Positions 6,613 to 62,277 of a DNA stretch of 64,000 bases are shown in pieces (within the stretch, counting starts at the first letter, position 1; every line of letters begins with the position of its first letter). The notes beneath the pieces were generated by a model. The model did not search any database. It saw nothing but the letters and a program-made list of their open reading frames with translations, and was not told the origin of the DNA. Made by a program: the position numbers and the translations under genes. Source of the stretch: Malacoraja senta (taxonomy: Eukaryota); NCBI GenBank assembly GCA_038087875.1, contig CM075988.1, forward strand, positions 24,678,001 through 24,742,000, written 5' to 3'.

Positions 6613-7179
6613 CTACAATAATTAAAAAATGTTTAAATGGAGATGGTGACAACAGGAACAGCATTGTGCTACACCAGAGAGGTAGGTCCAATATGTTTCT
6701 GCTATTTTGTATATGGTTTGAAAGTTTTATCAATTGGCTGTTCAGGACTTCGTTCAGCCTGAAGAAGTGTTCCAACCCGAAACGTCACCTATTCTTTTTC
6801 TCAAGAAATGCTCCTCTATCCGCTGAGTTACTCCAGCATTTTGTGTCTATCTTCATAAATCTCTACATTTGCCAAACAGTTCAGTCTGGAAACAAACATA
6901 TCCATTTACCTTTTGCAAAGCAATATTTCCTGAAGAATCAATGGGCAACTGAGCTAATGGGTTAGAGGAAAGTGCCAAAAGGAAGTTTACATCACAATCT
7001 TTTAGTTACATCAAATTTGAAAGTCAGATATAATAATAATAATCATAATAATAGATTTTATTTATATAGCGCTTTTCAGATATAGGCTATTCAACCCAGC
7101 TGGCCCACACTATTCTTTATTTACAACAGCTCGCCCACTTACTACCACTTCACTCCATATCCTTATGTTCCATTATTCA

Positions 7180-7505
7180 TATGTGGAGAGGATGTTTCCA
7201 CTAGTGGGAGAGTCTAGCACTAGAGGTCACAGTCTCAGAATTAAAGGACATCCCTTTAGGAGGGAGATGAGGATGACATTTCTTCAGTCAGAGGGTGGTG
7301 AATCTGTAAATCCTTTGCCACAGAAGGCCAAGTCAATGGATATTTTTACAGCAGAGATAGATTATTGATTAGTACGGGTGTCAGGGGTTATGGGGAGAAG
7401 GCAGGAGAATGGGGTTAGGAGGGAGAGGTAGATCAGTCATGATTGAATGGCGGAGCAGACTTGTTGGGCCGAATGGCCTAATTCTGCTCCCATCACATGA
7501 CCTTA
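7180..7505 (+). mobile_element. CR1 LINE 3' fragment
   Basis: Peptide ERMFPLVGESSTRGHSLRIKG and the CR1 3' terminal motif. Confidence 0.8.
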
Positions 7506-7911
7506 TATATGCATCAATTCACCTCTTCATGAGTCAATTAACATATTGACATACAAGCTAGTAAACATATTGAAAAGTTTACAATTTACATTATTAAATT
7601 CTGTCATAACGGGCCAACAAAAAAAAACCCAATACTTCAGGACAAATGTGTGCAAATATTTATTTCACATAGAATCATGATTGAATGAAGTGCTGGACAG
7701 CAGTGGAATTCAAACTGGGAATCAGTTAGAGATTGTTATCAGAAGAGCACAGGTGAAGGAGGTTGTTGACTCATGTGAGGGATAAACTAGATCAGTGCAA
7801 GAAGAAATTATCTGTCTGGAGGCTTTTTCTGTGTATTACTTCCTTATAAAGAGGAATACAGGGGAAAGTAAGGCAAGTGTTGATGTGAATCATGCAACTA
7901 TTGGCACGTAC

Positions 7912-8000
7912 CTGCCAAATGTTCTCACTGTACTTCCTTCATCCACTGCACCAGAACAAATCTCCCACAAAAAGTGAAATACGCCAGGCTTTGGTAGCAT
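7912..8000 (-). CDS. TEN1: TEN1 first coding exon (MLPKPGVFHFLWEICSGAVDEGSTVRTFGR)
   Basis: Manual translation matches the recalled vertebrate TEN1 N-terminus (MLPKPGTYYLPWEVSAGQVPDGSTLRTFGR). ATG at 8000-7998, donor AG|gtacgt at 7911. Likely acceptor tttcag| at 8038, which implies an upstream non-coding exon. Confidence 0.95.
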
Positions 8001-8909
8001 TTTTTTTTCTTTTCTCTGTTTGAGTGAGAGTTAAAAGCCTGAAATTAGTTTATGTTTCTTTAGTCATTGATTACATTGAAGATACAAGTTACCTATGATT
8101 GTCACAATGGGGCTTCAGGGTTGGTTATCACTTATCAGAAAAGAAGCAGCACGTCTTTTACCATCAATCCTATATTACCATTAACACTGGAGCAAACAGC
8201 TGGCAATAATGCTTCCAGGTTTACAATGAAAGTAATTTTCAGAGGCAAAAAATTAAATGTAGCGCTGGATGAAATTTCCCACCATGATACATATAAAATC
8301 AGTTGAATACATCCCCAAAGTTTGTAGAGAGTTTGCCAAAGTGTGGGGGGAGGATTTAATCCAAAACACGATGTTGATGTGACATAGACTATGCATCTGG
8401 TGGATGAAATATAGAAGGAAAACAGAATCAGTCCACTCGGCAGAACAAAATGCTGTTGGAGGAACACAAGACTAAATTGCAGGAGGAATGTAAGACAGAT
8501 AAACTTATCTGCACACAGGTATTATTGCTATCACAGGGACATAGTTGAAAGAATGGCAGGTCTGGAACATTCAAGGGGATAGCATCAGCATTACAGCAGA
8601 AGGGTGTAGAAAAAGGTGGTGGCATTGGAAAATTAAGTACTGGTAATTCACTACTTGTGTAAAGAAAGGATATCCTAGAAGGTACTTGAAATGGTCTTAC
8701 AGATAGTGTTTTGGAGCAAAAAGTTCAATTTCAATGAGGCCTTAAACACACATTGAAACTTCAGACTGAGGAAAGGTCCCAACAAAAATGTCACCTGTGC
8801 ATGTACTACAGAGATGCTGCATGGAAAGACACCAAATGCGTTTGACCCACTGAGTTACTCCGTCACTTTATGCCCTTTTACTAAACTACATGGTTAACAA
8901 AACTTCAGA

Positions 8910-9300
8910 GCGAGCGCATGGCAGCTGTTCCTTGCTTTTTGCATATTTTTCATTCATTAGTTCAATACACCATCTATATCTCCTGGGTACACAAAAATGC
9001 TGGAGAAACTCAGCGGGTGCAGCAGCATCTATGGAGCGAAGGAAATAGGCAACGTTTCGGGCTGAAACAACATTGCCTATTTCCTTCGCTCCATAGATGC
9101 TGCTTCACCCGCTGAGTTTCTCCAGCATTTTTGTGTTACTTCGATTTTCCAGCATCTGCAGTTCCTTCTTAAACACATCTATATCTCGTTTTCCCCTGAC
9201 TCTGTCTGAAGGGTCTCAACTCGAAACATCACCTATTTATTTTCTCCAGAGATATTGCCTGACCATGCTGAGTTACTCCAGCTTTGTTGTGTCTGATCCT
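8910..9300. mobile_element. Nested Penelope-like fragments: inverted hairpin insert (~8983-9175) inside an older copy
   Basis: Inverted arms; catctatatctc duplicated at both borders; the host copy resumes with ctgaagggtctcaactcgaaac. Confidence 0.75.
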
Positions 9301-9594
9301 GTTCCAAGTCTCCTTGAGTGCTTAAACTTGATGTAAGGACACACCATGACCTAAAACCATGGACATGTTTTTTTTGTAAACTTACCACACAATGTTGACC
9401 TTTCCTGAGGGATTCGCCTGTCAATCTGGGCCAGTTTCCAAAGAAGGGTCTCGACCCGAAACGTCACCTATTCCTTTCCTCCAGATATGCTGCCCGACCC
9501 GCTGAGTTACTCCAGCTTTTTGTGTCTATTATCGATGGGCAAGTTTGTTATGTTGGGGGAGTGCGACTGCTCCAGCCGTTCCTTCTTCTCCAAG

Positions 9595-9925
9595 GAATAG
9601 ATCGGGTAGATGCACAGAGTCTCTTGCCCAGAGTAGCGGAATGCGTCGAGGACATAGGTTCAAGGTGATGGGGAAAAGATTTAATAGGAATCTGAGGGAT
9701 AACTTTTTTTACACAAAGGGTGGTGGGTGTTTGGAACAAGCTGCCAGAGGAGGTAGTTGAGGCTGGGACTATCCCAACGTTTAAGAAACAGTTGGACAGG
9801 TACATGGATAAGACAGGTCTAGAGGGATATGGACCAAATGCAGGCAGGGGGGTCTAATGTAGCTGGGACATGTTGGGTGAGCTGGGCCGAAGGGCCTGTT
9901 TCCACACTGTACCACTCCAATTCTA
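9595..9925 (+). mobile_element. CR1 LINE 3' fragment
   Basis: Peptide RGHRFKVMGKRFNRNLRDNFF and terminus gggccgaagggcctgtttccac. Confidence 0.8.
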
Positions 9926-10079
9926 TTTTATATGTTCGACAGATACGTAGTCTCTGCAGTCCATTAGTTACTTGAGTGAAGCAGCAGCACCACTTCTTCT
10001 TGCTCACTCTAGTCTAACCCGTCTCGTATCTCCCGCTTCTCACCCAAAGCTGGCCTTTTTCCTTCCCTCTCCCTCTCCC

Positions 10080-10650: not shown

Positions 10651-11611
10651 TCAATCAGCTCGGTTCACCAATACTGCGCCTTTAATATCACTCTGCTTTG
10701 ATTGTTGTCTATCAGAATTATTGTAGTGGAACGTAATATTGGACGCACATCTTTTCATAAGTTCATAAGTGTTAGGAGTAGAATTAGGCCATTCGGGCCA
10801 TCAATTCTGCTCCGCCATTCAATCATGGCTGATCTATCTCCCTCCTAACCCCATTCTCCTGCTCAACATAACCTCTGACACCTGTACTAATCAATCTATC
10901 TTTTGGGAAAGACATCGTCCATCCCCTCCCCTTTCCCACCACACCAATGGACCCTTGAAATTTCCATGGCACTATTTCAAAGAAGAGCAGACAAAGTTCT
11001 CACTTTGACCCCGTTTGGCACATCAAAAACATTCCTTTCCATCTCCCTTCCACTCAGTCCGACAAGTTCCAACGTTCGCATCCCTGTCGTTAGCACATCT
11101 TCGCCAGTCAATAATGAATCATTATGGACTCCGCCCTTCCTGAGGCCATCTGTGTCAGGCCTTGTTTTGTTCTGGCTTTCTCTATCTTTCAGTCTGAAGA
11201 TGGGTTCCAACCCGAAATGTAACCTATTCCTGCCTGATCCGCTGAGTTACTCCAGCATTTTGTGTCTATCTTTAGTATAAATCAGCATCTTCCTTCCTAC
11301 ACACAAAAACATTTGTTGAGCCTTCATTACAATGTAGAATCTTGGACCACATGTTTTGGCAATTCTTGTGCATTAGAACAGAGAAAAGTATAGCACAGGA
11401 ACAGGCCCTTTGGCCCACAATGTCTTTGTCGAACATGATGCCAAGACAAACTAATCTCATCTACCTGCACATTATATCAATAATGATTAGTATTGTTTAC
11501 ATCCTACAAAGCACAATATTATTCAGGTGTTTCATGATATTTTAAAGTTCAGGGATTGAAAATAAAGTTTCCCCAAGGGAAGTAATATGTAGATAGAGAA
11601 CATAACAAAGA

Positions 11612-18422: not shown

Positions 18423-18498
18423 ATTTCATTTTGCTGGTGATTGAGAATAGAATGATGGGCCATTAAATGGTTGGGTGAAGTTGGCCTCCTTTTTCAAG

Positions 18499-19049
18499 TC
18501 TGAAGAAGGGTCTCGACCTGAAACGTCACCCATTCCTTCCTTCCAGAGATGCTGCCTGACCTGCTGATTTACTCCAGCATTTTGTGCCTACCTTCAATTT
18601 AAACCAGCATCTGCAGTTCTTTCATACTCCTTTTTCAAGGCAGACAGGCCAAACGCAAATTGGAGGAACAGCACCTCGTATTTCTCTTGGGCAGCTCACA
18701 ACCCAGCGGTATGAATATTGATTACTCTCTTCGAGTAACCCTTGCATTCCCTCTCATTCCGTCCCTCTCATTCTGTATAGGATGTTTTCACCAACCCCGC
18801 AGACAACAATGGGCCATTGTGGGCTCTGCCTTTCCTTGATCATCAATGCTTTTTTCATATCTTTCATTCATTGTTCTGTGTACCTTCTCTATCTCTCATT
18901 TTCCTTTCCCCTGACTCTCAGTCTAATGAAGGATCTCAAACCGAAACATCACCCATTCCTTTTCTCCAGAGATGCTGCCTGTCCTGCTGAGTTACTCCAG
19001 CTTTTTGTGTCTATCTTCGGTTTAAACCAGCATCTGCAGTTCCTTTCAA
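18499..19049 (+). mobile_element. Penelope-like (Neptune-type) fragments with hammerhead motifs
   Basis: First unit bounded by TSD ctcctttttcaag (18486-18498 and 18627-18639). Second unit encodes AKRKLEEQHLVFLLGSSQPSGMNID, resembling a GIY-YIG-region C-terminus, followed by 3' UTR and hammerhead motif. Confidence 0.75.
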
Positions 19050-19756
19050 GTCATGCCCGGCTTGAAAATGAAAGCACAAATTTTGATTGAATGTAATTCT
19101 GATGCTGTCACGGTGCTTCAAGCGATGGATTTCTACAACCATGCTAATTTTGTAACTTTAATTGTATATTTATTAAATAATTGATGTTAAATTCTCCAAC
19201 TGCAGCAGTGGGATTTGAAATCATGTTTCCGGTTTACTACTCCACTAATTCAACCACTACTATACTATTTCCCTTCAATTAATGGAGATAAACAAATCCT
19301 GTGCCTATTGTACAAAGGCTTTGCACTTTAAATACAAATTGTTCAATTTCATTAAATGAGCTTTATGTGTGTTTGTCTGGCACAGTGAAGCTGACATCTT
19401 TGCCTGGTGCAGATTGGAAGGATTTCTGTGAGAGCAAATGATTTATTGAGTCCACTAAAATCTAGTCAAGATAAAATTACTGAACCGTAAGCCTATTCCT
19501 TGCAGCCTGTGGGAATAAAGTGAAATTGCAGAGCTTCGTGCCGAGGCTAAGATTAATGAAGCCAGACACTCCATTATTACACATTGAATTTTTATATAAA
19601 AGCAGCAGGTAGAACACAACATTTATATACAGAGAAAATAATACGATTAATAGTCAGCAAGAGTGCAGCAAAGACACAGGAAATGTTAACAATGAAATCA
19701 GGATTCTGATTTTGAAGAAACTAAGGTTTTACAATCAAAGTGTATAGTTAGAATGT

Positions 19757-19997
19757 GTATAAAGGACAGCAGATGCTGGTTTAAACCACAGATAGACACA
19801 AAATGCTGGAGTAACTCAACGGGACAGGCAGCATCTCTGGAGTGAAGGAATGGGTGACGTTTCGGGTCGAGACCCTTCTTCAGACTGACTTCAGACTTCA
19901 GTCTGAAGAAGGGTCTCGACCTGAAACGTCACTCATTCCTTCTCTCCAGAAATGCTGCCTGTCCCGTTGAGTTACTCCAGCATTTTGTGTCTATCTT
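19757..19997. mobile_element. Inverted (hairpin) Penelope-like insert with two hammerhead motifs
   Basis: Arms of about 100 bp in inverted orientation; 16-bp TSD tgtatagttagaatgt at 19741-19756 and 19998-20013. Confidence 0.85.
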
Positions 19998-21743
19998 TGT
20001 ATAGTTAGAATGTTATCTGTAACTTTTATCCATGATAATGGAACGATAATCACAGTACAATCACATCTTCCAATATGGACTTGATTTTATCCTAAGCTCT
20101 ACTTCGCGCTTGAACTAAGTTCTGTTCATACTGAGAGTTATTTTCCTACACTGACCTACTCTGGCTCCTGGTTTGGCAGTACTCATCCTTGTTTTTCAGA
20201 TCCTTCCTTTAAACAATGCAAGATCTCTTTGATATTCCGGCCAGTTGAATATTTCCAGTTTTACTCACTCTATTGTGAACAAGTCTTCAGATCCATAGAC
20301 CTCACCTTTAGCTCTCTAAATCTCTCTACTATATTCCCCTCCTCCTGCTTTCGATGCACCTTCTAATTCACTGACCAATCTCTTGGTCATCCATTACACC
20401 ACTTCCTCACATGGCTCAGTGCCAAATTTGGAATCTTGAAATATTTAACTGTATTAATGGTTCTATAAAAATACAAGCACTTGCAGATGTGATATTGATC
20501 AGCCATTAAATTCCTGTCCCTGCTTACCTGTTGCTTGAGGCCCTTAAATGCCCTCTTGTTCCTTTGAGCAAATGTAATGAATGCTGGTTACTCCAGGCAT
20601 ACAACATAACCAAGAACCTTCATTCTTGGTTCCATTCTGTATTTCTCAGCGTCTTTTCAAAAATATTTTATAAAGTGTGCTTCCCAAACAAAACCCAGTA
20701 CAGCTTGGGACTTGTCAGTATTTTTTAGCCATAGAGTTCTTGCTTTATGCTCAATTTTACCTTGTACTAGTATAGTTTTAATATATTTGGTTTTTTTAAC
20801 AGCTTTCAACTCCGAACTTTTCCTTGGACAGATGTTAAAAAAGGAAATTTAATGGAGGTTCAAAATAACAAATGATTTTGATCAAGTAAATATTCAAAAA
20901 TTTTGCATATTGCAATTTATGTTCCACATTATGACAACTTGTTATCTGAAAGGTCATTGGAAGCAGATTCAATAGTAGCATTTAAAATGTAATTGGCTAA
21001 GCATCCAAAAAGAAAATAGGTTATATGGCTACAGAGAAAAAGTAGGAGAGTGAGATTAATTGTACATGGATCTCTTTACAATTGTTCCATTAGTTAATGT
21101 TGCCATAATTCAGTCTTTCAAACAAAATATAACATCTCATACTTCCATGAATCATACTTGAAAGGTCATAGTTATGGTAGTATTCTAACTGACTCCCTTA
21201 TAAAACCCTTAACAAATCCATGTTGGCCTTCTCTAAAGAATACATATTTTCCAAGTGACTCCAAATTCAGTCGCTAATTTTAATTTCTACATTGTCTATT
21301 ACTTTTGCTTCAATTTCTTCTATCAAGTAGAACTGTTGCCTCTTTGGGGTAAAACTAGTTCTGCATCTTATTTGTTTTTCAACTACTTCCTCTAATTTTC
21401 TATCATTTTACCCCCTTGTGATTTTGCCCAGTTTACCATGGGCAGCCTATTTAATGATATTGATATAAACCTAAACCTGGAATCACAGTAATTGTTTTCC
21501 TTTAGATTGAACTTGATCATATAATTTCAGTTAGAGAAATGTTCATTTTTTAATATTAACTGAACCTGCCTCATTGCTAAATTGTATATGCCCTTCTTTC
21601 TTGTTGGCTTCAGGACACATTGAGAAAAGTATCCTGAGCACACTAAAGGATCTGAATACGTTTCAGATAGGAGCTGACCATTTTAAACCCAATAATTACC
21701 ACAGTCAATGTTCTCTCTTTAAAACCATGTCATATATATTACT

Positions 21744-21918
21744 GTTTAAGAAGGAACTGCAGATGCTGGAAAATCGAAGGTAGACAAAAATGCTGGAGAA
21801 ACTCAGCGGGTGAGGCAGCATCTATGGAGCGAAGGAAATAGGCAATGTTTCGGGTCGAAACCCTTCTTCTGAAGATGCTGCCTCACCCGTTGAGTTTCTC
21901 CAGCATTTTTGTCTACCT
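21744..21918. mobile_element. Inverted Penelope-like insert
   Basis: 14-bp TSD tcatatatattact at 21730-21743 and 21919-21932. Confidence 0.8.
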
Positions 21919-21974
21919 TCATATATATTACTAATCATTTCATTTGTATAGATTACCAATCATTACATTTATAT

Positions 21975-25535: not shown

Positions 25536-25634
25536 ATATCTGAAGAAGGGTCTCGACCCGAAATGTCACCCATTCCTTCTCTCCAGAGATGCTGCCTGTC
25601 CCGCTGAGTTACTCCAGCATTTTGTGTTTATCTT
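25536..25634 (+). mobile_element. Penelope-like mini-insert starting at the hammerhead core
   Basis: 12-bp TSD tggtaaattcct at 25524-25535 and 25635-25646. Confidence 0.8.
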
Positions 25635-26119
25635 TGGTAAATTCCTGATCAGTTTACATTGATTTAAATGTTCACCACATTAGAATATAGAAACTAATGT
25701 AATATCACCACCAAGAGTTAAATAGTTTAGTTTAGAGATACAGCATGGAAACAGGCCATTCGGCCCACCAAGTCCACGCCGACCAGCGAACCCCATACAT
25801 TAACACTATCCTACACAATCCATTAAATGTGGGTGTCAGAAACTATCTGGTCCTGAGATTTTGAATCACAATCAACATAAATTTGTACAACAATTTTGCA
25901 GCATGTGAAACTTGTAATCCATAGTGTGTTTATGAATCTATGATTCCATACCATACCATATCTGCTTTTCTGGTATTTATTGAAACTATGATTCTGGACC
26001 GTTAAAGCTGTCTAGTGGCTCTGAATCCGCCATCACGAAGTGCTCTAAGAATCTGGTGATGGTGTCCATCCAGCCTCCTAGCCAGCCTTCATCCACTGCA
26101 GTTTGCCTAGCATCGCAAC

Positions 26120-28137: not shown

Positions 28138-28420
28138 TATGTAGGAATGAACTGCAGATGCTGGTTTAAACAGAAGATAGACACAAAAAGCTGGAGTAAC
28201 TCAGGCAGGCAGCATCTCTGGAGAGAAGCAATAGGTGACATTTCGGGTTGAGACCCTTATTCAGACGAGTCAGGGGAAAGGGAAACGAGAGATATAGACG
28301 ATAGAGAGATAAAGAACAATGAATGAAAGATATGCAAAAAAAGTAATGGATGATAAAGGAAACAGGCCACTGTTAGCTGTTTTATTGGATGAAAACGAGA
28401 AGCTGGTGCGACTGGGTGAG
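28138..28420 (-). mobile_element. Penelope-like 3' fragment
   Basis: Antisense copy of the shared aggaa..gcagatgctgg...gaccctt(a)ttcagac unit plus UTR. Confidence 0.7.
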
Positions 28421-43444: not shown

Positions 43445-43750
43445 ACGTAGACGCAAAATGCTGGACTAACTCAGCAGGTGAGGCAGTATCTCTAGAGAAA
43501 AGGAATGGGCGATGTTTCGGGTCGAGACCCTTCTTCAGACTGATGTCAGGGGAGGGAACGGGACAAAGATAGAATGTAGGCAGAGACAGTAAGACCAGTG
43601 GGAGAACTGGGAAGGGGAAGGGGATGGGGAGAAAGCAAGGGCTATCTGAAGTTAGAGAAGTAATGTTCATACCGCTGGCGAAATATGAGGTGCTGTTCCT
43701 CCAATTTGCACTAGGCCTCACTCTGACAATGGAGGAGGCCCAGGACAGAA
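43445..43750 (-). mobile_element. Penelope-like (Neptune-type) 3' fragment
   Basis: Antisense KLEEQHLIF-coding segment, UTR and an intact hammerhead motif at ~43513-43541. Confidence 0.75.
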
Positions 43751-44654
43751 TGGGTCTGGGTTAAGACGTGGTCGTAGAGTCGGAGGGAAGGTGGAATCAC
43801 AGAGGGTGAGCAGTGAGAGGGGATGTTGCCGAACTCTCATCAGAGAGAGGAGGGGTTGGGTTACAGTCCAAAATATCTGAGGAAATGGGTTATATCCATA
43901 TTCATGGAATCCTGGGGTTGCGTTACAGACTGCAATATGTTTGAAGGATTTGAGTGCTTCATATCGGGAATAAATGAGTGAACCAATTACTGGAACCTGG
44001 TCAAGATCTCAAATGGTTTGTAAGTTCTGGAAAGCGATGAAGGTTCCCTGGTTTGAATGCCGAGTAAATGGATTTCTTTCTCGAGTAGCAAACCAGATTC
44101 ATGAGTTCAGTTAACATCATAAACCATAAAAGTGACGTTTGAATAGTCTAAAATAGTAATTTGAACCTTAAAATGAGATTACAGCCTAGGTCTGACACTC
44201 AGGCATCTGTTGTTTTTCCAACATATCATGCAAACTGATCCTTTGTTATCAAGCACTGCAGGCACAGACTGCTTTAAGTTGCAGATGATATTAATGAACC
44301 TGATGTCATTACTGCAGGTTTTTCAGACAAATTACATTTGATAATTATATTGTACAAGGTTTTTGCCTGGCACATCTGTCATGCTTCAAACATAACACTG
44401 TATAGAACATCAGCAAATCATATCTGTACAATCATAAAATAATATTAAAAGTGGAACAAAGCCATTATTTCCTATTATTTTATGAGGTATTAACCAAACA
44501 TGGTATTGGAGAGGAATCAAAACCATTGTCAAGAAAACCTGTACAGCACCATACTTAAAAACAGAAAATACTGGAAATAAACAGCAAGTCAATCCGCATC
44601 TGTGGGGAAAAAAAAACCTTTGTTACAATTGTGAAGGACTGAAAATAAACGTAG

Positions 44655-45065
44655 ACAGAAGGAACTGCAGATGCTGGTTTACAAAAAAACGCACAAAGTT
44701 CTGGAGTAACTCAGAGGGCAGGCACTATCCCTGGAGAACATGGGTAGGCGATATTTTGGGTTGGGACTTCTTCAGGCTGATTATAGTAGAGCTGAGAAAG
44801 TTGGATGGGAGGTGGGGGTGGGGCAAAATAATCTTGTTTCGCAACAGGGAGAATGGAGATGGAGATGTCTCTGATAAAGTAAACCCCAGGGTAAACACGA
44901 GGATGAAAAAAGACATAAAGTGCTGGAGTAACTCAGCAGGTCGGGCACCATTTCTGGGAAACATGGATTTAGGTGACATTCAATGATGTTGACCTGAAAT
45001 GTCACCTCACTTTTTCCCTTGCACTTTGTGTCATACTTGTAAGCCAGCATCTTCAGTTCCTTGAG
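44655..45065. mobile_element. Cluster of decayed Penelope-like fragments in both orientations
   Basis: Three partial copies of the gctggagtaactcag / gcagatgctgg unit. Confidence 0.6.
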
Positions 45066-47376: not shown

Positions 47377-49159
47377 ATTTGGGTATTAATAGGAGTCTGG
47401 TAAACCTGCTGGTCCAGCAGTATCAGTCCCAAGGGTGTTGAATTATCAGACTTTTACCGTAGTACAAAGAGATCATTTCTGTTCACGTGGGAGGCCAGAA
47501 AGACTTTTGTTTAACCTTGTATCCAAAAGGCTGAGCTAGAAATTCCATGGCTAAACAGTCAAGGCACATGCATGAGGCTGCAATTGAGCTCATAGGAGAT
47601 CAGAGATCTCAGATTAGGGTTTGAACTTCATGGTTTCAGAACCAATATTGTTATCAAGCCCACTGACAAGGGAGGAGTCTGAAGAAAGGTCCCGGCCCGA
47701 AATGCCACCTATTCATGTTCTCCTACCTTATGCATGTGCTTTCACTTTTTTGTTATGGAAAGATATCAAGAAATAAGAATAACATGGACATAGTAACTAA
47801 AGCATTCCAAATCTAACTCCTTGTGTTTAAGTGGAATACTTTCTATTGCTCACATTATTCCTCTGATGCTGGAAACAGATATCAGTGAGCTGTCAATGCA
47901 CTCCAGGACCCAGGTAAACTTGTTCTGATGCAATATTGCTCGTCATCGCCATCTGAAGATGCTGGAGTACAATTTCCTGAAAGTAATTGATACTCAATCA
48001 CTTCAACCAATGGCTTCAGGCTTAGGGCCAAGGATTTTTTTCTTTAGTAGGCAAATCATTCACAGTGTGTGTGTGTCACAAACCATCTTGATCCCGTACC
48101 CATTTGATGATGCAGCATGTACATTTCCAGAAGGGGTTGACAACTAATGATCAGAGTTTGCAACTTCAGAAGAATTCACTCCTGTACTCTTGTTGCTGTA
48201 CAAGTTCTGCTCATTTGACTGAGTGATGGCCAGCCAATTCACCTGAAACTGCTGTCATGTACATATTTGACTTTACTTGCTCCCTATCTTGTCACTTCTT
48301 CTGGTTCCAGCTCGGATTTTAACAGGAATAATTTCAGCATTGGTCGTTGCTGCGGGACCAAAATATTGGCAGACATACACATTTTGACTGCTTCATTTCA
48401 AAGTTTTGGACGTTTTATAAGCTTAAATCCCAGGCTGTGATTATTTTTTGGCTCCATGACATTCTTTTACAATGTTAGATTTAATCAGCATATGTTATTG
48501 TCCATAATTTAAAGCTGTGACATCTCATTAAGTTAAATTCCTGAGATTGAATTTCAGGCACTGTTCAATATCAAATATGGAGAGAATGAACTGCTGCCTT
48601 AAGAGAAAAGGACTCATTATCACTCACAATACTCAATAACTTTTAAGGTTCCTGCCAAGAATTTGCTGGAAATCTTAGACTGTAATTTAAATTTATAAGA
48701 GTGTAAGGTATTTGAACATTTAGAGAGCATTCTTATGCACCATTTCATAAACTTGTATAGATTTATATGATTAATGACTTTTTTGCCTGTCATTCGATTG
48801 CTGTTTGCAGATGCTTTGTTTATATAGTGAGTCCTAACTGCATAGCCAAGTGTAACCGGGAAGAGGGAGTTACTGCGACAGGTGTGAGAAGACTAAATGA
48901 ATGTCAGCTGAGATACAGCCAATATGCCAGAGTTTTGGTGGTGGTTCAGTCATGTTATAACAGAACCTCAATTATCTGCATTGCCATACTTCACATTCCT
49001 GATTAGCTCTGTAATTTTTCCTGGGGCTCTGAGTAAGGGCCAGGAAACAATCAAAACCATGGAGTTGATTGAGCAGAACAATGGGAGTTAATGCATGTTC
49101 CAGAGAACATAGAACCTGAGACTTGAGAAGGGTCTAGTTTGAGCTGAGACAATGTGGCA

Positions 49160-53620: not shown

Positions 53621-55078
53621 GACAAACAGCAAACATAATGAAGTGTTTGAATTGGAAGCATAGGTGCTACCATCATGTGAATTACTTAAGGGATGGATTG
53701 AAAACATTGTGAAACTGGTTCTGCCGGCTATGTGATTGGTTCTTCTTCCTTGTGTCTGGCCATCTTCCATATCACGTCTTTCCGGTCGGTCAGTGACGGT
53801 TGACGGTCGGTGGTTGCAGAATTGGCTACTTCAGTCATTCACTGTGGTACAGTTTCTGTCGTCAGCATTGCCCGGAATGCACCACGCGGAGGCTTCTGCT
53901 TGCATCCCATTTGATTGGTAAATGCACAATTCATTCTTCCACGGAGCCAGTCAAACTATGAAATACCTAGTCACATTTTAGTCACATTAACTGATTGCAA
54001 TGATAGCCATATATTTATAAAAACATCTTTCTTAGTCACAGAATATTCCAGTGTTTTAAAGCCAATTAAGTGCTTGAATCATTCTAGTTGTTGTATTGTA
54101 GGAACCGTGATAGTATATTTGTATACAGGAAGCTCAATACAAGACCATGTCCTTTCAATATTTCCTATCGTTACAATCCATCAGGACAATGAACAGAAGC
54201 CAATAATCAGTATAATTGTAAAAAGGCTCTGAGATGGACCATGGCACCTGAACCATCTCCCTGGCTTTAGTTTAAGTCTTGGTTGACATAGCACTGTGCA
54301 CGAGTCAGAAACGTGGGCAGTGTTGAAGAGGTGAGTGAATGCAACACTGCCAGACATGTCATGTTGCCGATGAAATATGAAACTGAGACCTTACTTCCAT
54401 CTCTGGTATTTGTGATGAATGATCAAATCATTCGATGTTAGATCAGGGATAAATCAGATTACCAGATGAACCTCCCCTATACTTCAACAATCTTTAATGT
54501 CCACTTGGGTGGCTGGCTTCAGTTTAATGGCAGAGTTATGAAAATCTGGGATGTGCAAGGGACCAGAATTGAAGGGCTGGAAGTGATTACAGAGATCAAG
54601 GGAGGTAATGGCCCTGGAGGGATTTGGATATGAAGTTAAGAATTAATAATTGTGCGAATTACTTTATTTCATTTAAACTAAATGTTTCTCTGCTCGCATT
54701 TCACTGCTGAGATTGGACCAATTTGTGCACATATTGTATACCTTAGTATACACCAGCGATGACTTCTTGATCAATCGGTGACCATTTGGACATTGGACAA
54801 TGTATGGTGAGATTGTGTTCCAATCTTACCACACATCTTCATAATTATTGACAGGAATCGGATTTTACATGTGCAGCCCATGACCTGTGTTTTCAATCAC
54901 AAAACTACAAGTAACAAATCCCCTGCTAGATTGCCAGAGAAACATGAATTGAAGGATGCCGATGTGACATTAATGTATTGCTCTCTGCATTAGCCGGCCT
55001 CTCAATTGTTATTGCGTGCATATTTCAAACAACACTTCTGGGTGTCCCATTATATATTGCAGCACGAATATATTGCAG

Positions 55079-55458
55079 TCTGATGAAGGGTCTCGACCCA
55101 AAACGTCAACCATTCCTTCCCTCCAGAGATGCTGCCTGTCCCGCTGAGTTACTCCAGCATTTTGTGTCTACCCTCGATTTAAACCAGCATCTGCAGTTCT
55201 TTCCTGCATATATTGCAGCATTTCTACATAATGGTCAGCAGAGATAAATGCTGCATTCTCTGCCATTGGGAGGTGGGGGGGAGTACCACCACTTTGTAGT
55301 GATGCAAACGACTCACGGCACAGGGTGTGCATTGGATAGATGGTTACTTGGTCTGAGGAAAGGTCGGAAGAAGGGTCTCGACCCGAAATGCCACCCATTC
55401 CTTCTCTCCAGAGATGCTGCCTGTCCCGCTGAGTTGCTCCTACATTTTGTGTCTATCT
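55079..55458 (+). mobile_element. Two Penelope-like mini-inserts (55079-55207 and 55350-55458)
   Basis: TSDs atatattgcag and tagatggttactt (55337-55349 and 55459-55471). The first has the canonical CTGATGA core. Confidence 0.8.
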
Positions 55459-56295
55459 TAGATGGTTACTTCGAACGGTTGAGATGACCAGACACACTGG
55501 AGACATGCATCTCCCCTCTGCTGCATTTTCTCTCATTTCCATGGCAGTCTTTCCTGTGGCTACCGAGTGAAAACTCCTTCAAGCTCTGACTGCATTCCTT
55601 TGCGCCACAGCAGCAATTAAATTAGCAGCTGCGATCTTTCCAAGCAACTGCGCAGATAATTTTTTTAACACATAAATCAGGTGAAAACTACCCTAATTAC
55701 TTTTTTTGTAAAATATTCCCTCCCCCCCCCCCCCCCCACACCAAAATTGGGCATTAACACTACATGCAGCACCTGTTTAGCACTGTAATAATGGTGAACT
55801 TTAAATTCTAAGCATAGATCTTCCTCAATCCATTCTTTTGCCAGTAGGTATAAATGCTTCGAAATTGGAAATGATAAACACAGTCAGATGTTACACCTTT
55901 AAGAAGTGATTTTTTGTGATTGTAGACAATATCTGTGATTGCAGGTAATATCATTAGGTGTTCAGATGTGCGATGGTGAATGATGCCGGAAGTGGCCGAG
56001 CCAATTTCCCCATGGTCAATAATCGATCTCCAAATAAATCACAAGCAAATTCTAATACACGCAAAATGCCCTTTATAGTCAACTTGAGCATGAAAACCAT
56101 GTAAGTAGTTCAATTTCGAGGCAAAAGTCTTGAACATTTTGGAGGTTGGAACAATGGGACAAGAAAAGGCCATTCAGCCCCTCAAGCCTGTTCTGCCATT
56201 GTATAAACTATACATTTCCAAAATAAATCCTCTGAAAGGTATTCCAGCAGCAAATTGTTCATTTATTTAGAGTAACACTTCAATAACCAGACTAA

Positions 56296-56571
56296 AGTGA
56301 GGACCACCATAAATTGGAGGAGCAGCACCTCATATTTCGCTTGGGCAGTTTGCACCCCAGCGGTATGAACATTGACTTCCCTAATTTCAGTCCTTACTTT
56401 CGCCTCCCCTTCTCAGCTCTCCCTCAGCCCACTGGCTCCACCTCTTCCTTTCTTCTTCCTGCCCTCACATCAGTCTGAAGAAGAGTTTCGGCCCGAAACG
56501 TTGCCTATTTCCTTCGCTCCATAAATGCTGCCTCACCCGCTAAGTTTCTCCAGCACTTTTGTCTACCTTCT
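56296..56571 (+). mobile_element. Penelope-like (Neptune-type) 3' fragment
   Basis: Encodes SEDHHKLEEQHLIFRLGSLHPSGMNIDFPNF, then UTR and hammerhead motif; 14-bp TSD aataaccagactaa (56282-56295 and 56572-56585). Confidence 0.85.
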
Positions 56572-59177
56572 AATAACCAGACTAAGTTGTTGACGACTGA
56601 TCCAAATACAATGTTTAAAAGGCGTTTGGACAGGTACTAGGAAAGGAAATGTTTAGAGGTGTATGGGCCTAATGCAGGCAAATACGATTGGCACAGATAG
56701 GCATCGTAGTTAGTGTGGTCAAAGTGGGCCAAAAGGACCTGTTTCTGCGCTATACCTCTTTGATTCTGATTTACGCTGCATACTGGTAAAACCAAAATCA
56801 CAGGCAGTTAATACCAATGACCACAAGAGGACAACAAAGCCTGGGACTTAGCATTCCCTAGTTCTTATGGAGAAAAGACAGTGAGGTCGAAATTTGATAA
56901 TGCAGTTTTATTTTTTTCCAGTGGATCAAACCCAATTTTGTGTGATTTCAAATGCGATTTGCAATTGTACTTTTATGGCCTGCCTTGTTCTACCTGTAAA
57001 GACTAAATCATGTGATTCCAAATGTATATGAAATGTGCAGAGTATACAGCTATAATATCAATCCCTGCCACGTGAGGCCACATTTCTGCAGCTAACACGT
57101 AGTGTGGGCCATTGCACAGGAAATCAGGTCTGAACAACAGGAAAAAGCTTTGCAACTGCACTATTTAAAGCAAGCTTAATTGCTAGCAGGTTTGTTGGCA
57201 AATCAGTTGGTGGAGAGCTCACTGTGCTCAACTGAGGATATATTTTTCATAATGGATCAAGTTTGCTTTAAATTTTGGATTACTGTGGAAGCTAAAGTGT
57301 ACTTACTGCCTGAGCAAGAGTAAGGGGGGGGGGGGCATGGGAAAGGAAGTGGGGGGAGAAGGGCTTCAGTGGTGGTGAAGCTCACAGTTGCCCTGGACCT
57401 CTTGTTATTCAATGCTGCAACCAAGCAGGTTACTGTTGACCCATGCAATCACATTTGGATGTCACTTTCTTTGTGAATGACACTCTGTTTGAGATGAAGG
57501 GTGTTAGCAATAAGAAATGGACCCTGATTATTTCAACATCCTGTCAGCATGATGTTCTTGGCTGATCAGCTATCTTGTGGTTGAGACTTTTGCCTCAGTT
57601 GGGTGGTGTATTATCCCCATGTTCACCCATCTTGGCTAGAAAGGGAGCTGACACATGAGACATCATGTGACCAGTTGGTTAATAACTCTTTCCTTAAACC
57701 TCATGTATCAAGCAAAAACTGACATGGAAACTAATGATTCAGAATACCAATCTACGCGCCAGACAAGAGCCAGTTGAATCACATACCTTTTTCTGATGAT
57801 AAAAAGGACTGGGAGAACATTATTGAAAGTGGCTAAATTATCTCCTCCAACTAACTCAGTTTACTTCATGAATTTCAACTGACCTGGTCCACAGAAGGTG
57901 AAATGTTCCTTGATGAAGTACTTGTATGGGATAATCAATACTGATTGTTATACGCGAACAAGGCAGATCTGGATCTTATCCCTTTGAATCTTAGTCAAAT
58001 CCTTTAAATCCATAAAATAGGAACTGAACCCACAGAAAATCCAATTTTACTAAAAGGAGTGGAGCATTGTTGAAAAAGCTGTTTTTGGAAGATTTGTTAA
58101 ACCAGTTGCACTCAAGAGGATTTAAAAATCCCAAAACTGGAGAATTTCTTCCTAAGTCCTGGTCAATACTCATCCATCAAGTAATATAATAAAATAATTG
58201 AAATAATAATGCAAAATGCTGGAAACACTCAATGGGTCAGGCTCAACTAACTATTTCCAGCAATTTGAGCTATTATTTCAATATAATATCAGGCTGCTTC
58301 ACACACAGCTGTCCTTGGGGGTTTACTGTGCACCCATAGCCTGCTATGTTTTCTCTATTCTAACAGTGAATGAGTACTTCAGTCACTTGCAGAAAGCAGG
58401 GCATGGGTTTGTGGAGGGACATTTTGAGAGGCAGTCTAGTTTTTATTGGAGCTTCTTTAAACTTCTCACTTGCATTTATCTGGCAGAGAGTTCTGCTGAC
58501 AGAAATGACACCCCATTGGGATATAGTTATAGGCGCATGCCTTTATAGTTATGGGTGCTCTTGGTGACAACTAAAATGGTGGCCTGTGGATTCCAATAGG
58601 TGAGGTTTGGAAAGGTGGAAAGCTTCAACTTGCAGAGTCCAGCCCGACTCTTGCCAAATGGTGTTGATTAAAGTTAGCCTCCAGGACTGATGACAGCTGA
58701 TTTTCCTCTCCCTATTTCAATGGTCCTGGGACTAATTACAGCAGCCAATTTGCCTCCACGAAGGATCAACCACAATGAGGCGTGGTTCTTACCTCGTCAG
58801 AACAGCAGCCCCCGTTCAATGCCGATTAGTAACAGAATCAATTCCCCATTATATATCTCCACCTACTGAGACTCTCAAAATACTCTTATCCCAAAGCCTG
58901 CGAGCTAAAAAGTTGCGCTTCCAGACAGTACTTCATTCCTTGACTGATTCTTTTCAAATATATATGTACCAGAATAGACAATCTTTCCAATATTCTCTGT
59001 GAAAAATAATTTATTAATATCATTAAAATGAGAAAGATAACTAAAGAGACTGCTGTACATTGCTTCAATATGTTCCTCAGTATCTAAGTATGAAGTGTAT
59101 AATTATATGATTGCTTGATACCTTTTCAACAAATGGCATCATACATCTTAGAACAGGTCATAACGTTAGACTAGCAA

Positions 59178-60092: not shown

Positions 60093-60273
60093 TATAAGAC
60101 ATCAGTCGGGTTACCCTCCAATCTTCTTATTTCTAGGACAGCTTACTTGGAAATGCAAACCACCATCAAATTCACCACCGTCATAATTATTCCAATTTAG
60201 TCAAAGATCATCAATCCCTCACATTACAAGATTAAAACCCAGGAAATATCTTCTAAGCAACAATGTGGGAGGC

Positions 60274-60432
60274 ACATTTCCTACACTTTCACTTTTTCCT
60301 TCACTTTCTTCTTTCTTTCAATCTTTTCCTTTTCTAGTGTAAAAAATAAATGGAGTACATTAATTGTAAGAAGATATAAATGACAAGTACTAATGTATGT
60401 GGTTGTAATGTAATGTACTTCTAATAAAATAC

Positions 60433-60466
<34 letters not shown>
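60274..60466 (+). mobile_element. Poly(A)-tailed retro-insertion (L1/Tx1-type 3' end)
   Basis: aataaa followed by a ~29-nt A tail; 15-bp TSD aacaatgtgggaggc. Confidence 0.75.
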
Positions 60467-60467
<1 letters not shown>

Positions 60468-61062
60468 CAATGTGGGAGGCTTCATGGTGCAGTCTGCAGA
60501 AGAAGGCTCCACACTACCTTCTCATTGGTAATTGGGGACAGGCAATAAATATCATCCTCATCAATGATACCCATAACCTAATGAAATTATTCTGAATGTC
60601 ACATTACAGTTTTCTAACATTGTGACAGCTTTGATAGGATAGAGCCCTCAAATGCCAGTGATATGCTGGGGTATTATTTCTTTATGAATATATTTAGGAT
60701 ACCATGGGGAGAAATCTATGTTTGATGGCTAGTTCTAACTGTCTGCCAGTAGTACTCATTCCCACATATTCAGATCCCCTGAACATAGGCATGTTTCTCC
60801 ACCTATATTTCAAATAATTATACTGAGAAAAACACTATATCTTTTGCTTGTGAGTTTCAGTTGAAAGGGAGTGTTCCACATGTAAGAAAAAAAACATTTT
60901 AAAAATAATTAAAACATCTTACATTTATATCAACTCGTTCATACCCTCTCAGGACATCTCAGAGCTTCTTATAACAATGTAAATAATTACTTTGAGCATA
61001 CCCAAGGCTTGCAAACAGCAATGAGATAAATTACCAGGTAACCTTTGCTACCTGTTGCTTTA

Positions 61063-61849
61063 ATCTGCGAGTTTAGAAGAGTTTGCCCTCGACTCAAACT
61101 CGCAGCATGGTTGACACGGAGGTCCTATGATGTCACTGGAACTCTCCTTCATGCTCAAGGGAAGTTCCCGCATACTCGCGGCCTCAGCTAGGTCGCGGAA
61201 AATATTTCAGCATGATGAAAAATTTTCCGCGAGTAAAAATTGTTCGGCATGGTTCTTTTGAACTCGTAGTGCAGTGGTGTGAGGTCGCTATGTAGTTACA
61301 GGCAGTCGAGGGCAGCCGTAGGCAATCTCCTTCACTGACCGGGCATTTTAATTGGATCATTGGCGTTTTCAGGACCAAGGAAAACTGGCTTGGTAAAATG
61401 CCCGCTAAAGTAGGTAAAATGCCCGCTAAACTTTATTATACTTAAAAGTGTCTCCACTCCTACTCCCCCTCTTCTCTCCCCTTCTCTACCCTACTCCCCC
61501 CTTCTCTCTCCTTCACTCCCCCTCTCTCCCCTTCTCTCCCTTTCTCTACCCCCCCCCCCCCCGCGCTCTCTAAAGGACTTACTGTACACTGTGCAGCCGT
61601 CTTTAACCTTCTCTTCATCGCGGGTGTGAATTTCAGACAGCGCTTCCCCGCTTTCCCTGGCCCCTGCCTTTGCGATGTGTTTGTGTGTGTGTGTGCGGTC
61701 GGTCGATCCAGCTCGCACTTTCATCGCGGACGGTCGATCCAGCTCGAGGTTTTTCAGGCGAGTGCGCTCGAGCTTGAAGGTCGAAGACACTCTTCTGAAC
61801 TCGCACATTAGGTCGCCACAGTGGGACAGCCCCTTTAAGGGGCTGTCCC
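61063..61849. mobile_element. Longer Harbinger-type non-autonomous element; left TIR missing, TIR-TTA-TIR junction at right
   Basis: Interior related to 12449-12676 (gagtttgccct, ctcgcagcatgg, gcatgatgaaaa). Ends GTGGGACAGCCCCT-TTA-AGGGGCTGTCCC. Confidence 0.7.
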
Positions 61850-62142
61850 TGGATGAAAAGTCCCTGGATGAAAAGCTAAGCTTACATTTTGGCAGTCAAG
61901 CAGTGTCTCAATAGAATTAAAATTGTTACTAATCAGAAAATATCACACACGAACTTTACACAACATTAACGTGAATAAACAATCCAATTAGTGCATTTTA
62001 ATTATTACATATGCCACTAATCATGATAAAAGGACTTACAGCAATTTCAAAATTAGAACAAAAATTAAAAATCTAAATATTGACATAAGTATCGACGGCT
62101 ACAGGGAGAGCTCTATCATGGGAAAGAACATGTATAAGTACA

Positions 62143-62277
62143 TGTGTAGGAAGGAACTGCAGATGCTGGTTAAAACCAAAGCTAGACACAAAAAAGCTGG
62201 AGTAACTCAGCGGGTGAGGCAGCATCCCTGGAGAAAAGGAATAGGTGACATTTCGGATTGAAGCTCTTCTTCAGATC
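62143..62277 (-). mobile_element. Penelope-like mini-insert
   Basis: Antisense unit ending at cttcttcaga, the 5' edge of the hammerhead motif. Confidence 0.7.

What the first reader, a model, noticed from the sequence alone, without database searches (positions are those of the whole stretch)
6755..62277. Dense family of Penelope-like mini-elements carrying a minimal hammerhead ribozyme motif
Seen: about 20 copies share CTGA(A/T)GA-A-GGGTC-TC-GACCC-GAAA-CG-T(C/T), e.g. ~18500, 19903, 25540, 34791, 55080, 59992 on +, and ~19857-19883, 32711-32739, 43513-43540 on -. Three copies are joined to a KLEEQHLIFRLG..PSGMNIDF coding end. Established: CUGANGA, stem II, GAAA and UH form the hammerhead core, and Penelope-like elements carry minimal type I hammerheads whose palindromic stem III (here ACGU) requires dimerisation. 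Inference: this is a very high-copy non-autonomous, retrozyme-like derivative that places potentially self-cleaving RNA motifs every ~3 kb, including around TEN1.
Basis: partly seen in the sequence, partly recalled or inferred. Interest (0 to 1): 0.72.

Follow-up and report, generated by a model that had tools for sequence, protein, structure and literature searches.

The report
Decayed Penelope retrotransposon ends with hammerheads
This stretch of what appears to be skate DNA is peppered with short, mostly decayed end-fragments of a known kind of jumping gene (Penelope-like, Neptune type) that carries a known minimal self-cutting RNA motif; the notable detail is that half of the fragments start just before that motif and none starts at its cut site.

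Summary
The repeat is real: 15 motif matches at up to 3 mismatches (0 in 100 shuffles), and 32 arms in 26 insertions. It is the 3' end/pseudo-LTR of a Neptune-type Penelope-like element (PLE), probably in a skate: GIY-YIG C-terminus, UTR, minimal type I hammerhead, about 95-nt core, optional about 35-nt tail. Distant RT+GIY-YIG relatives carry the same hammerhead 88-165 nt behind the ORF match (20 of 32 loci), with compensatory stem changes. Insertions show PLE hallmarks: 11-16 bp target duplications (11 of 26) and six head-to-head pairs, each with exactly one tailed arm.

'Retrozyme' is not supported in this window: there are no tandem arrays, and short and ORF-linked copies interleave in a tree. 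Only 5 of 23 cores are intact, the monomer misfolds (stem II probability 0.004), and the hammerhead-bearing copies in TEN1 are antisense.

One lead is worth following: 16 of 32 5' ends fall within -6..+4 of the hammerhead's first base and none at the cleavage site. This suggests run-off cDNA of uncleaved RNA from PLE internal priming sites to a fixed RNA 5' end (inferred, about 50%). Verdict: new member of a known kind.

The parts
19856..19883 (-). Best-preserved minimal type I hammerhead: CUGAAGA, extra A, 4-bp stem II with CUCG loop, GAAA, palindromic ACGU, predicted cleavage after GUC
   Evidence: exact match; intact; covariation
6754..6854 (+). Short copy, core only, 5' end at about -5, stem II damaged; in the TEN1 intron between coding exons 1 and 2, antisense to TEN1
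8761..8824 (+). Degenerate copy of a divergent subfamily, core broken
8986..9176 (.). Head-to-head pair (- arm core only, + arm with tail; neither has the CUGA end), 12-14 bp duplication, inserted in the UTR of the older copy at 9207
   Evidence: arms 65 of 67 identical
9177..9300 (+). Older UTR-linked copy with a deletion in the hammerhead core; its upstream UTR continues at about 8950-8984
9441..9533 (+). Short copy starting at +4, 11-bp target duplication
11170..11304 (+). Copy with short UTR, internal deletion and tail; palindrome lost
18497..18627 (+). Short tailed copy starting at -3 with AG microhomology, 13-bp duplication; core intact (G10.1-U11.1)
18650..19047 (+). ORF-linked copy: GIY-YIG C-terminus, UTR, broken hammerhead (G5 to A), core, tail
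19753..19998 (.). Head-to-head pair (- arm tailed, + arm core only), both arms start at about -5, 16-bp duplication, both cores intact
   Evidence: arms 90 of 94 identical
21743..21920 (.). Head-to-head pair (- arm tailed from +3, + arm core only from about +48), 14-bp duplication
25539..25636 (+). Short core-only copy from -1, 12-bp duplication, palindrome lost by CpG change
27847..27908 (+). Very short tailed fragment from +71, no hammerhead
28137..28405 (-). UTR-linked tailed copy, G8 to U
32643..32946 (.). Head-to-head pair with about 80 nt between the arms (- arm core only, intact hammerhead with UUCG loop and GUU site; + arm tailed from +14), 14-16 bp duplication
   Evidence: 79 of 80 identical
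34788..34884 (+). Short core-only copy from -3 with AG microhomology, 12-bp duplication, G12 to A
34943..35062 (-). Old tailed copy from -4, core broken
36383..36649 (+). UTR-linked tailed copy, palindrome lost
43447..43759 (-). ORF-linked core-only copy (GIY-YIG C-terminus with a stop and a deletion), palindrome lost
44658..44781 (-). Old tailed copy from about -6, core broken
44911..45062 (.). Old head-to-head pair (- arm core only, + arm deleted internally but tailed); weakest of the six pairs
47676..47723 (+). Fragment from -3 to +45, core broken
55076..55210 (+). Short tailed copy from -4, 13-bp duplication plus a partial extra copy of the target, G12 to A
55350..55460 (+). Core-only copy with a doubled 5' piece of the hammerhead (template jump), 13-bp duplication
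56296..56572 (+). ORF-linked core-only copy of the second subfamily, 14-bp duplication; source of peptide P0002
59870..60092 (.). Head-to-head pair (- arm tailed from +13, + arm core only from -2 with exact motif 59992-60019); no duplication found
62141..62280 (-). Tailed copy, stem II damaged
993..8000 (-). Host gene TEN1, coding exons at about 8000-7912, 6612-6455 and 1147-993; CpG island 10001-10750 upstream (context, not part of the element)
   Evidence: Pfam Ten1_2 on the first and last exon; boundaries and island

Best explanation
The copies are dispersed, 5'-truncated pseudo-LTR/3' ends of an autonomous Neptune-type Penelope-like retrotransposon. They were inserted by that element's own RT and GIY-YIG nuclease and have decayed since.

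Shown here: the order ORF end, UTR, minimal hammerhead, about 95-nt core, optional about 35-nt tail; staggered target cuts 11-16 bp apart; two 3' end classes; head-to-head pairs with one arm of each class; and a sharp pile-up of 5' ends just before the hammerhead.

Taken from work on another PLE: reverse transcription starts at two internal sites that delimit the tail, both target strands are cut and extended, and uncleaved RNA is the template.

Inferred: (a) each inverted pair is one event in which the two nicks primed at the two different start sites and the cDNAs joined at their 3' ends (about 70%). (b) The 100-135 bp copies are run-off cDNAs from the start sites in the 5' pseudo-LTR to the RNA's 5' end, a transcription start at the initiator-like TCAGT directly before CUGA (about 50%). 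(c) The hammerhead was kept under selection in the master elements, where it may cleave as a dimer or with help from the element's protein, but the genomic copies do nothing for the host (about 90%).
For: The 33-aa peptide P0002 matches the C-termini of skate and whale-shark proteins at 73-84%. The GIY-YIG part of one of them (P0009) finds RT+GIY-YIG proteins of sharks and rays and a 902-aa ORF with a Cys-rich linker. In distant relatives a hammerhead hit lies 88-165 nt after the ORF match in 20 of 32 loci (14 of 24 not used to build the model). Stem pairs covary: 28 double-change cells against 12.4 in shuffles; column 16-21 reads UA/CG/UG/AU/GC. Target duplications of 11 bp or more: 11 of 26 units against 2 of 150 mismatched flank pairs. 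3' ends: 14 core, 16 tail, 0 in between, 2 shorter. In 6 of 6 inverted pairs one arm is tailed; the arms of the five younger pairs are 93-99% identical against a median of 84% among copies. 5' ends: 16 of 32 in -6..+4 and 0 of 32 at +27..+31. The six ORF/UTR-linked copies do not form a clade. CpG sites differ in 33 of 159 cells. Literature: PMC4209133, PMC11167929, PMC8557442, PMC3846280.
Against: No full-length element lies in the window and no genome was held, so the autonomous parent is known only from related species' proteins. The 5' end positions were read by eye and the -6..+4 window was chosen after seeing the data. Nine of the 16 piled-up arms lack a target duplication, so an unrecognised UTR of another subfamily could hide there (6 of the 7 duplication-bounded single copies still start in the window). 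The sequence before CUGA fits a 3' splice acceptor (pyrimidine tract plus CAG) as well as an initiator. Two copies have TCGT instead of TCAGT, and the TATA-like TATA(T/C) at about -35 is missing in the 43538 and 56475 UTRs. Core non-CpG positions differ less than downstream ones (8 of 199 against 140 of 1233, p=0.001), though not significantly once subfamily-diagnostic columns are dropped (8 of 199 against 75 of 1055, p=0.12). The tree rests on 94 columns with only 2 starred branches. The shuffle control ignores relatedness, and most double changes come from one distant lineage.
Confidence: 0.8

Rival explanations
1. The short 100-135 bp unit is a self-propagating non-autonomous family (SINE-like or retrozyme-like), with its own internal promoter, that borrows the PLE protein and may go through dimeric or circular RNA.
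For: 16 of 32 arms share nearly the same 5' end, as full-length SINE-like units would. Only 3 of 32 arms reach the ORF. In DNA run X1 of a related organism some contigs join the core or tail end to a hammerhead start (190 contigs in the listed joints, of 338,715 laid; 1508 further joints not shown), so head-to-tail dimers exist at low frequency. A 2026 preprint derives animal retrozymes from PLE pLTRs and reports some in one cartilaginous fish.
Against: No tandem array of the element among the 12 TRF rows. Short and long copies interleave: the best-supported clade (100/99) holds one ORF-linked and five short arms, and monophyly of the long copies is rejected. None of 32 5' ends is at the cleavage site, where copies of a self-cleaved or circularly permuted unit would be expected to begin or join.
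Confidence: 0.15
2. Same element, but the 5' pile-up has another cause than a transcription start: a 3' splice site at CAG/UCUGA, or RT termination and template switching at the near-palindrome TCAG-T-CTGA, which could also pair two cDNA ends.
For: A pyrimidine tract plus CAG precedes the motif in the long copies. In D. virilis Penelope the intron ends at the 5' end of helix I. Palindromes at inverted junctions are described in rotifer PLEs. The 19.8 kb junction contains slipped copies of this palindrome, and three duplication-bounded singles show AG or CAG microhomology.
Against: Copies of a spliced RNA should share an upstream exon, and the short copies share no sequence upstream of about -6. 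Four of the six inverted junctions do not use the palindrome (both arms start downstream of it, or the arms are separated by a spacer). Several distant relatives with a different sequence before CUGA show a TATA box about 40 nt upstream of the hammerhead, which fits a start site just upstream of it.
Confidence: 0.4
3. The host has co-opted the hammerheads as self-cleaving regulators of TEN1 or neighbouring transcripts.
For: Six arms lie between TEN1's CpG island and its second coding exon. Assemblies of runs guessed to be RNA contain the repeat (X15, X17).
Against: The five + arms there are antisense to TEN1 and none has an intact core; the one - arm lacks the CUGA end. Monomer stem II probability is 0.004 and the competing hairpin is -8.9 against -3.9 kcal/mol. 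Published min-HHR monomers showed no cleavage and dimers low cleavage. The anole PLE ribozyme cleaved only with its protein. One of nine Xenopus dimers cleaved. No Pfam-detectable host gene was found in the 300 stop-free frames scanned, apart from TEN1, one sub-threshold zinc-finger hit and transposon remnants (300 of 703 frames).
Confidence: 0.03

Closest known systems
Neptune-clade Penelope-like elements with minimal hammerheads in their pLTRs (PMC4209133; PMC8557442)
   Same: C-terminal GIY-YIG end followed by a pLTR with a min-HHR (no helix III beyond a palindrome, extra base between 9 and 10.1, G10.1-C11.1). Mostly solitary truncated copies, pairs on opposite strands, 30-40 bp optional tail; Cys-rich RT-EN linker in the related proteins.
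   Different: Shorter stems (II 4 bp, I only 2 bp in the skate copies) and very high density (26 insertions in 64 kb). No skate or shark family was named in the parts of PMC4209133 that I saw (main text parts 1-2 of 4; term search of its supplements, file 1 not searched).
Poseidon element of Anolis carolinensis (PAc; PMC11167929)
   Same: Two internal RT start sites that delimit the tail, about 111-118 nt behind the start of stem II. Here the 3' ends fall about 85-90 and 115-123 nt behind it, the tail ending in an AC-rich stretch. AT-rich targets (duplications 68% AT against 59% for the window). Uncleaved RNA as template.
   Different: Different clade (Poseidon lacks the linker zinc finger). 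In PAc the ORF starts at stem II; most copies here have no ATG there. A 5' pile-up at the hammerhead edge is not described in the parts I read, and its Fig. S2 is an image I could not see.
Metazoan non-LTR retrozymes (PMC7229834; bioRxiv 10.64898/2026.07.22.740005)
   Same: Small, non-coding, type I hammerhead, related to PLE pLTRs, high copy number.
   Different: Retrozymes are head-to-tail tandem repeats of about 150-450 bp units, in PMC7229834 with canonical type I hammerheads, and give circular RNAs. Here the copies are dispersed singles or head-to-head pairs with target duplications and a minimal hammerhead, and some are joined to the ORF.
Penelope elements of Adineta vaga (PMC3846280)
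   Same: Inverted pLTRs enclosed by a target duplication, tail on one of them, palindromes at inverted junctions, TATA/Inr-like motifs in the pLTR, solo pLTRs.
   Different: Duplications of 8-10 bp there against 11-16 bp here; low copy number there.

Membership tests
Penelope-like element (EN+) | Single ORF with telomerase-like RT and C-terminal GIY-YIG | tested here: inconclusive
   Only the last 30-45 codons are in the window (3 copies). They match GIY-YIG C-termini, and relatives carry RVT_1 plus GIY-YIG. No full ORF from this genome was available.
Penelope-like element (EN+) | pLTR with hammerhead directly behind the ORF end | tested here: met
   3 window copies; 20 of 32 distant loci
Penelope-like element (EN+) | Optional 30-40 bp tail, often at one end only | tested here: met
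   14 core-ended, 16 tail-ended, 0 between; 6 of 6 pairs have one tail
Penelope-like element (EN+) | 5' truncation with inverted pLTR arrangements and target duplications | tested here: met
   6 head-to-head pairs; duplications of 11 bp or more in 11 of 26 units against 2 of 150 controls
Neptune clade | [quoted passage not shown] | tested here: met
   C-x4-C-x2-C-like linker in P0137-P0142, the relatives found with the GIY-YIG end; criterion from PMC8557442. Seen in relatives, not in the window. Nematis shares the motif.
Neptune clade | Placement in an RT phylogeny with reference PLEs | not tested
   No named reference PLE proteins were at hand. The preprint found only Neptune and Poseidon in vertebrates.
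Minimal type I hammerhead | Core CUGANGA/GAAA/UH, stem II, palindromic 15.2-16.2, extra base after A9 | tested here: met
   Majority sequence meets it; 5 of 23 copies intact
Minimal type I hammerhead | Covariation in stems I and II | tested here: met
   stem II 93% paired with double changes at 2 of 4 pairs; the two core-proximal stem I pairs also show double changes. Within the window only one-sided changes (U-A to U-G).
Minimal type I hammerhead | Self-cleavage as dimer or with protein | not testable with these tools
   Folding alone disfavours the active fold
Non-LTR retrozyme | Head-to-tail tandem units, at least two with a complete hammerhead | tested here: not met
   No such array in the window. 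Rare head-to-tail joints exist in a relative's contigs.
Non-LTR retrozyme | Lineage replicating apart from ORF-bearing copies | tested here: not met
   Short and ORF/UTR-linked copies interleave; 5 label changes against a shuffled mean of 5.5 (25 rows, 94 columns)
Non-LTR retrozyme | Expression as unit-length linear and circular RNA | not testable with these tools
   Only assembled contigs of runs guessed to be RNA were available; contigs show no ends, strand or circles

The most novel reading that the evidence does not exclude
The skate repeat is a very large natural record of PLE integration. The hammerhead occupies the first 30 or so nucleotides behind the cap. Most insertions are abortive run-off cDNAs of uncleaved RNA from the 5' pLTR's two internal priming sites to the transcription start. 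Head-to-head pairs arise when both target nicks prime, one at each site. Hammerhead cleavage, held off by a competing hairpin, would then act as a switch that removes the capped 5' end and is not part of template production. Short copies that keep the initiator could in turn seed a SINE-like second wave.
Probability: 0.4. Interest if true: 0.6.

Novelty: new member of a known kind. Interest (0 to 1): 0.33.

Why it matters
As a family it is ordinary: minimal hammerheads in truncated PLE pLTRs are published for many animals, thousands per genome (PMC4209133). It matters in three smaller ways.

First, the steps of PLE integration after priming are stated as unvalidated (PMC11167929). A very abundant family with clean 11-16 bp duplications, two 3' classes and a sharp 5' step makes the two-nick and run-off models testable by counting.

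Second, it gives a genomic argument that cleaved RNA is not the template.

Third, the ORF end contaminates gene models: a skate neuromedin-U receptor 1 protein record ends in the PLE GIY-YIG C-terminus. No evidence points to a role in TEN1 regulation.

Tried and rejected
Rfam scan: no hammerhead family up to E=1; the miRNA-family hits fall on inverted-repeat hairpins and are all below gathering scores.

No genome was held for the window, so there are no genome-wide counts.

Exact motif scans of viral and metagenome contigs found 0 and 0. One GTDB match (L001) is a chance 23-mer in a bacterial repeat region behind a long ORF that looks like RNA polymerase beta' (identified from recall). No PLE protein relative was found in viral contigs.

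One search was wasted: P0004 proved to be a GPCR model with a PLE tail and returned only receptors. Five of the 14 hits (P0003, P0005, P0007, P0013, P0015) are repeat-rich proteins that I set aside as chance. P0017 is only a cluster member of P0003.

Run X22 laid 17 reads and is uninformative. X15 and X17 are only guessed to be RNA. The small-share metatranscriptome rows were not used. Depths are sums over contigs and are not copy numbers; I use them only as rough ratios.

The search for an ACOX1- or CDK-like neighbour by short recalled motifs and by Pfam on 300 of 703 stop-free frames found none.

Earlier findings of this scan: nothing returned.

Literature searches returned no description of this skate family or of a 5' pile-up. 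The library lacks most subscription papers, Repbase and Dfam, so the family is probably catalogued somewhere.

A dimer between neighbouring same-strand copies was considered and rejected. The close neighbours (18500/18923, 55080/55367, 9207/9443) each include at least one broken core. The nearest intact same-strand copies (18500, 19903) are 1.4 kb apart, and 19903 has an adjacent antisense partner. The two-stem-II plus ACGU dimer fold scores -12.7 against -26.9 kcal/mol for the best cofold.

Full report
Observation. A DNA profile built from ten window copies finds 33 hits and none on the reversed window. I dropped one weak 32-bp hit (58211-58242) and kept 32 arms, grouped into 26 insertion units. 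Positions below are relative to C3 of the hammerhead (+1). Rfam has no matching hammerhead model at E up to 1. The window also holds TEN1 on the - strand (exon edges) and LINE and Gypsy-like remnants.

What the element is. Three copies continue upstream through 100-240 nt of pyrimidine-rich UTR into a coding end. The 33-aa peptide from 56296-56394 hits 14 proteins at E up to 0.001 among 1.84 billion. The relevant ones are C-terminal matches in records named Rhinoraja longicauda (84%), Leucoraja erinacea (74%) and whale shark (73-74%), so the window is probably from a skate (inference). The Leucoraja protein shows the GIY-YIG context (YIGET, HFN). Its residues 135-236 retrieve seven longer proteins, among them whale shark, Mobula, Stegostoma and Chiloscyllium proteins and an unnamed 902-aa ORF with Pfam RVT_1 and GIY-YIG. 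These carry a cysteine motif between RT and nuclease, which marks Neptune and Nematis (PMC8557442, passages); a preprint found only Neptune and Poseidon in vertebrates. I therefore call it Neptune-type, without an RT tree.

The hammerhead is a conserved part of this PLE lineage. An alignment of those proteins found 488 related stretches in metagenome contigs, of which 80 were kept (hosts not determined). A strict minimal descriptor found 13 motifs in these 80 loci and none in ten shuffles. A covariance model from 32 sequences has a hit 88-165 nt behind the ORF match in 20 of 32 loci that reach the C-terminus, and in 14 of 24 not used in training. Several loci also have an inverted copy upstream. 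Core letters stay fixed while stems change: 28 double-change cells against 12.4 in shuffles, the loop-closing pair of stem II reads UA, CG, UG, AU or GC, and the two core-proximal stem I pairs covary. That control ignores relatedness and most changes come from one distant lineage. The architecture equals the published min-HHR of metazoan PLEs (PMC4209133, main text parts 1-2 of 4).

The genomic copies are mostly dead. Of 23 arms that include the hammerhead start, 5 keep all core bases, four stem II pairs and the ACGU palindrome (18500, 19883, 19903, 32738, 59992). Two CpGs sit on G12 and on the palindrome, and CpG columns differ in 33 of 159 cells. Non-CpG core positions differ in 8 of 199 cells against 140 of 1233 downstream (p=0.001), or 75 of 1055 once subfamily-diagnostic columns are removed (p=0.12). 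Median divergence from the majority is 10% (20 copies). This fits selection on the master elements and decay afterwards. In the best copy, stem II has probability 0.004 because the purine strand pairs with the pyrimidine run behind the cleavage site (-8.9 against -3.9 kcal/mol), and none of six folded regions is more stable than its shuffles. Four of the five intact cores lie in inverted pairs, where a read-through transcript would form a long duplex. Published tests found no monomer cleavage and weak dimer cleavage, cleavage only with the element's protein (PMC11167929, main text parts 1-2 of 4), and 1 of 9 active dimers (preprint parts 1-3 of 5). In TEN1, five arms are antisense to the gene and none is intact; the one sense arm lacks the CUGA end.

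Insertion anatomy. Eleven of 26 units have a flanking direct repeat of 11 bp or more, against 2 of 150 mismatched flank pairs. Trimmed by eye these are 11-16 bp and 68% AT. 3' ends are bimodal: 14 at +89..+102, 16 at +123..+131, none between, and two shorter (two values adjusted by hand as noted in that script). This is the optional 30-40 bp PLE tail, which in the anole element is the distance between two internal RT start sites. There are six head-to-head pairs; four are enclosed by one duplication and each has exactly one tailed arm (chance about 1 in 64 if the arms were independent). The arms of the five younger pairs are 93-99% identical against a median of 84% among copies. As the anole protein cuts and extends both strands, the simplest reading is one event in which both nicks prime, one at each start site (inference). 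Arkhipova and colleagues read similar rotifer structures as self-priming on an antisense template (PMC3846280, passages), which these data do not exclude.

The 5' pile-up. With positions read by eye, 16 of 32 arms begin in -6..+4, 8 begin further in (7 of them arms of inverted pairs) and 8 further out. The termination rate is 8.5% per nt in the window against 0.4% and 0.8% on either side (binomial p about 7e-10 after a 40-fold correction for choosing the window). None begins at +27..+31, where a cleaved template would start. Six of the seven single copies bounded by a duplication begin in the window. Contigs of a related organism point the same way (run X1): summed depth is flat at 1.4 million over the two UTR bins of the 56.3-56.6 kb copy and 10 million in its core bin, and a set of 970 loose 5' ends has an AT-rich consensus that ends in TCAGTCT (agreement only 0.36). 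These sums are not copy numbers and UTR divergence confounds them. The 338,715 contigs laid still indicate a very abundant family.

Mechanism. My preferred reading is that the RNA starts at the initiator-like TCAGT just before CUGA (the match to the initiator consensus is recalled knowledge). RT starting at the internal sites of the 5' pLTR then runs off after 100-135 nt, while starts in a downstream pLTR give the longer, variably truncated copies. PLE promoters lie in the pLTR (PMC2377424 and PMC3846280, passages), and several distant loci show a TATA box about 40 nt before the hammerhead. The rival, a splice acceptor or palindrome-driven template switch at the same spot, is nearly as likely.

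Retrozyme test. Retrozymes are defined as tandem units with hammerheads that give circular RNA (PMC7229834, passages; preprint). Tandem Repeats Finder lists 12 rows, none this element. In a tree of 25 cores the six ORF/UTR-linked copies need 5 label changes (shuffled mean 5.5), their monophyly is rejected, and the best-supported clade mixes one ORF-linked with five short arms (short alignment, few strong branches). Against my reading, X1 has some core-end-to-hammerhead-start joints (190 contigs among the listed joints), so rare head-to-tail dimers exist and retrozyme-like arrays elsewhere in the genome are not excluded.

Novelty. The kind is known. Seven literature searches and a term search of PMC4209133's supplements (file 1 not searched) gave no description of this skate family or of the 5' pile-up. 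PMC6155905 was seen as passages only. Figure S2 of PMC11167929 is an image and the preprint's supplements are closed; either could already show the pile-up or this family. Repbase and Dfam were not available. Verdict: new member of a known kind, interest 0.33.

Noticed in passing
window:3736-5884 (+): LINE-type RT plus RNase H remnant (180-aa and 557-aa frames; Pfam RVT_1, RNase_H) inside TEN1 intron 2, antisense to the gene, with long open frames
   Followed up: partly
window:29330-32009 (-): Gypsy-like LTR retrotransposon remnant in several frames (gag-protease, RT, RNase H by Pfam), broken by frameshifts
   Followed up: partly
window:52660-53536 (+), 36852-37382 (+), 11606-11953 (+), 16523-16924 (-): Further LINE 3' remnants (RVT_1 hit for 52660; the others look like L2/CR1-type ends from recall)
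   Followed up: no
window:10001-10750: CpG island upstream of TEN1 with a 53-bp tandem repeat (10408-10549) containing GTAACCATGGCGAC-like units, which resemble an RFX X-box (recalled)
   Followed up: no
window:21950-22214, 24264-24523, 25720-25817, 59560-59815: A second dispersed family of about 250 bp, seen in the self-comparison; not identified
   Followed up: no
window:12044-12251 and 17868-17946: Inverted-repeat (MITE-like) hairpins that draw sub-threshold miRNA family hits
   Followed up: no
window:8950-9300: One inverted pair has inserted into the UTR of an older copy of the same family, as expected if the nuclease also cuts its own pLTR
   Followed up: partly
P0004, P0011: Public gene models fused to the PLE GIY-YIG C-terminus: a Rhinoraja neuromedin-U receptor 1 record and a VKOR-domain protein; probably annotation artefacts
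   Followed up: partly
P0139: The Stegostoma PLE protein reads through its UTR into a stretch that looks like the translated hammerhead region, suggesting the same arrangement in sharks
   Followed up: no
window:22498-22686 (+): Sub-threshold C2H2 zinc finger Pfam hit (E 3e-4)
   Followed up: no
L001:4001-4023: Chance exact match of the motif in a repeat-rich region of a bacterial genome bin
   Followed up: yes
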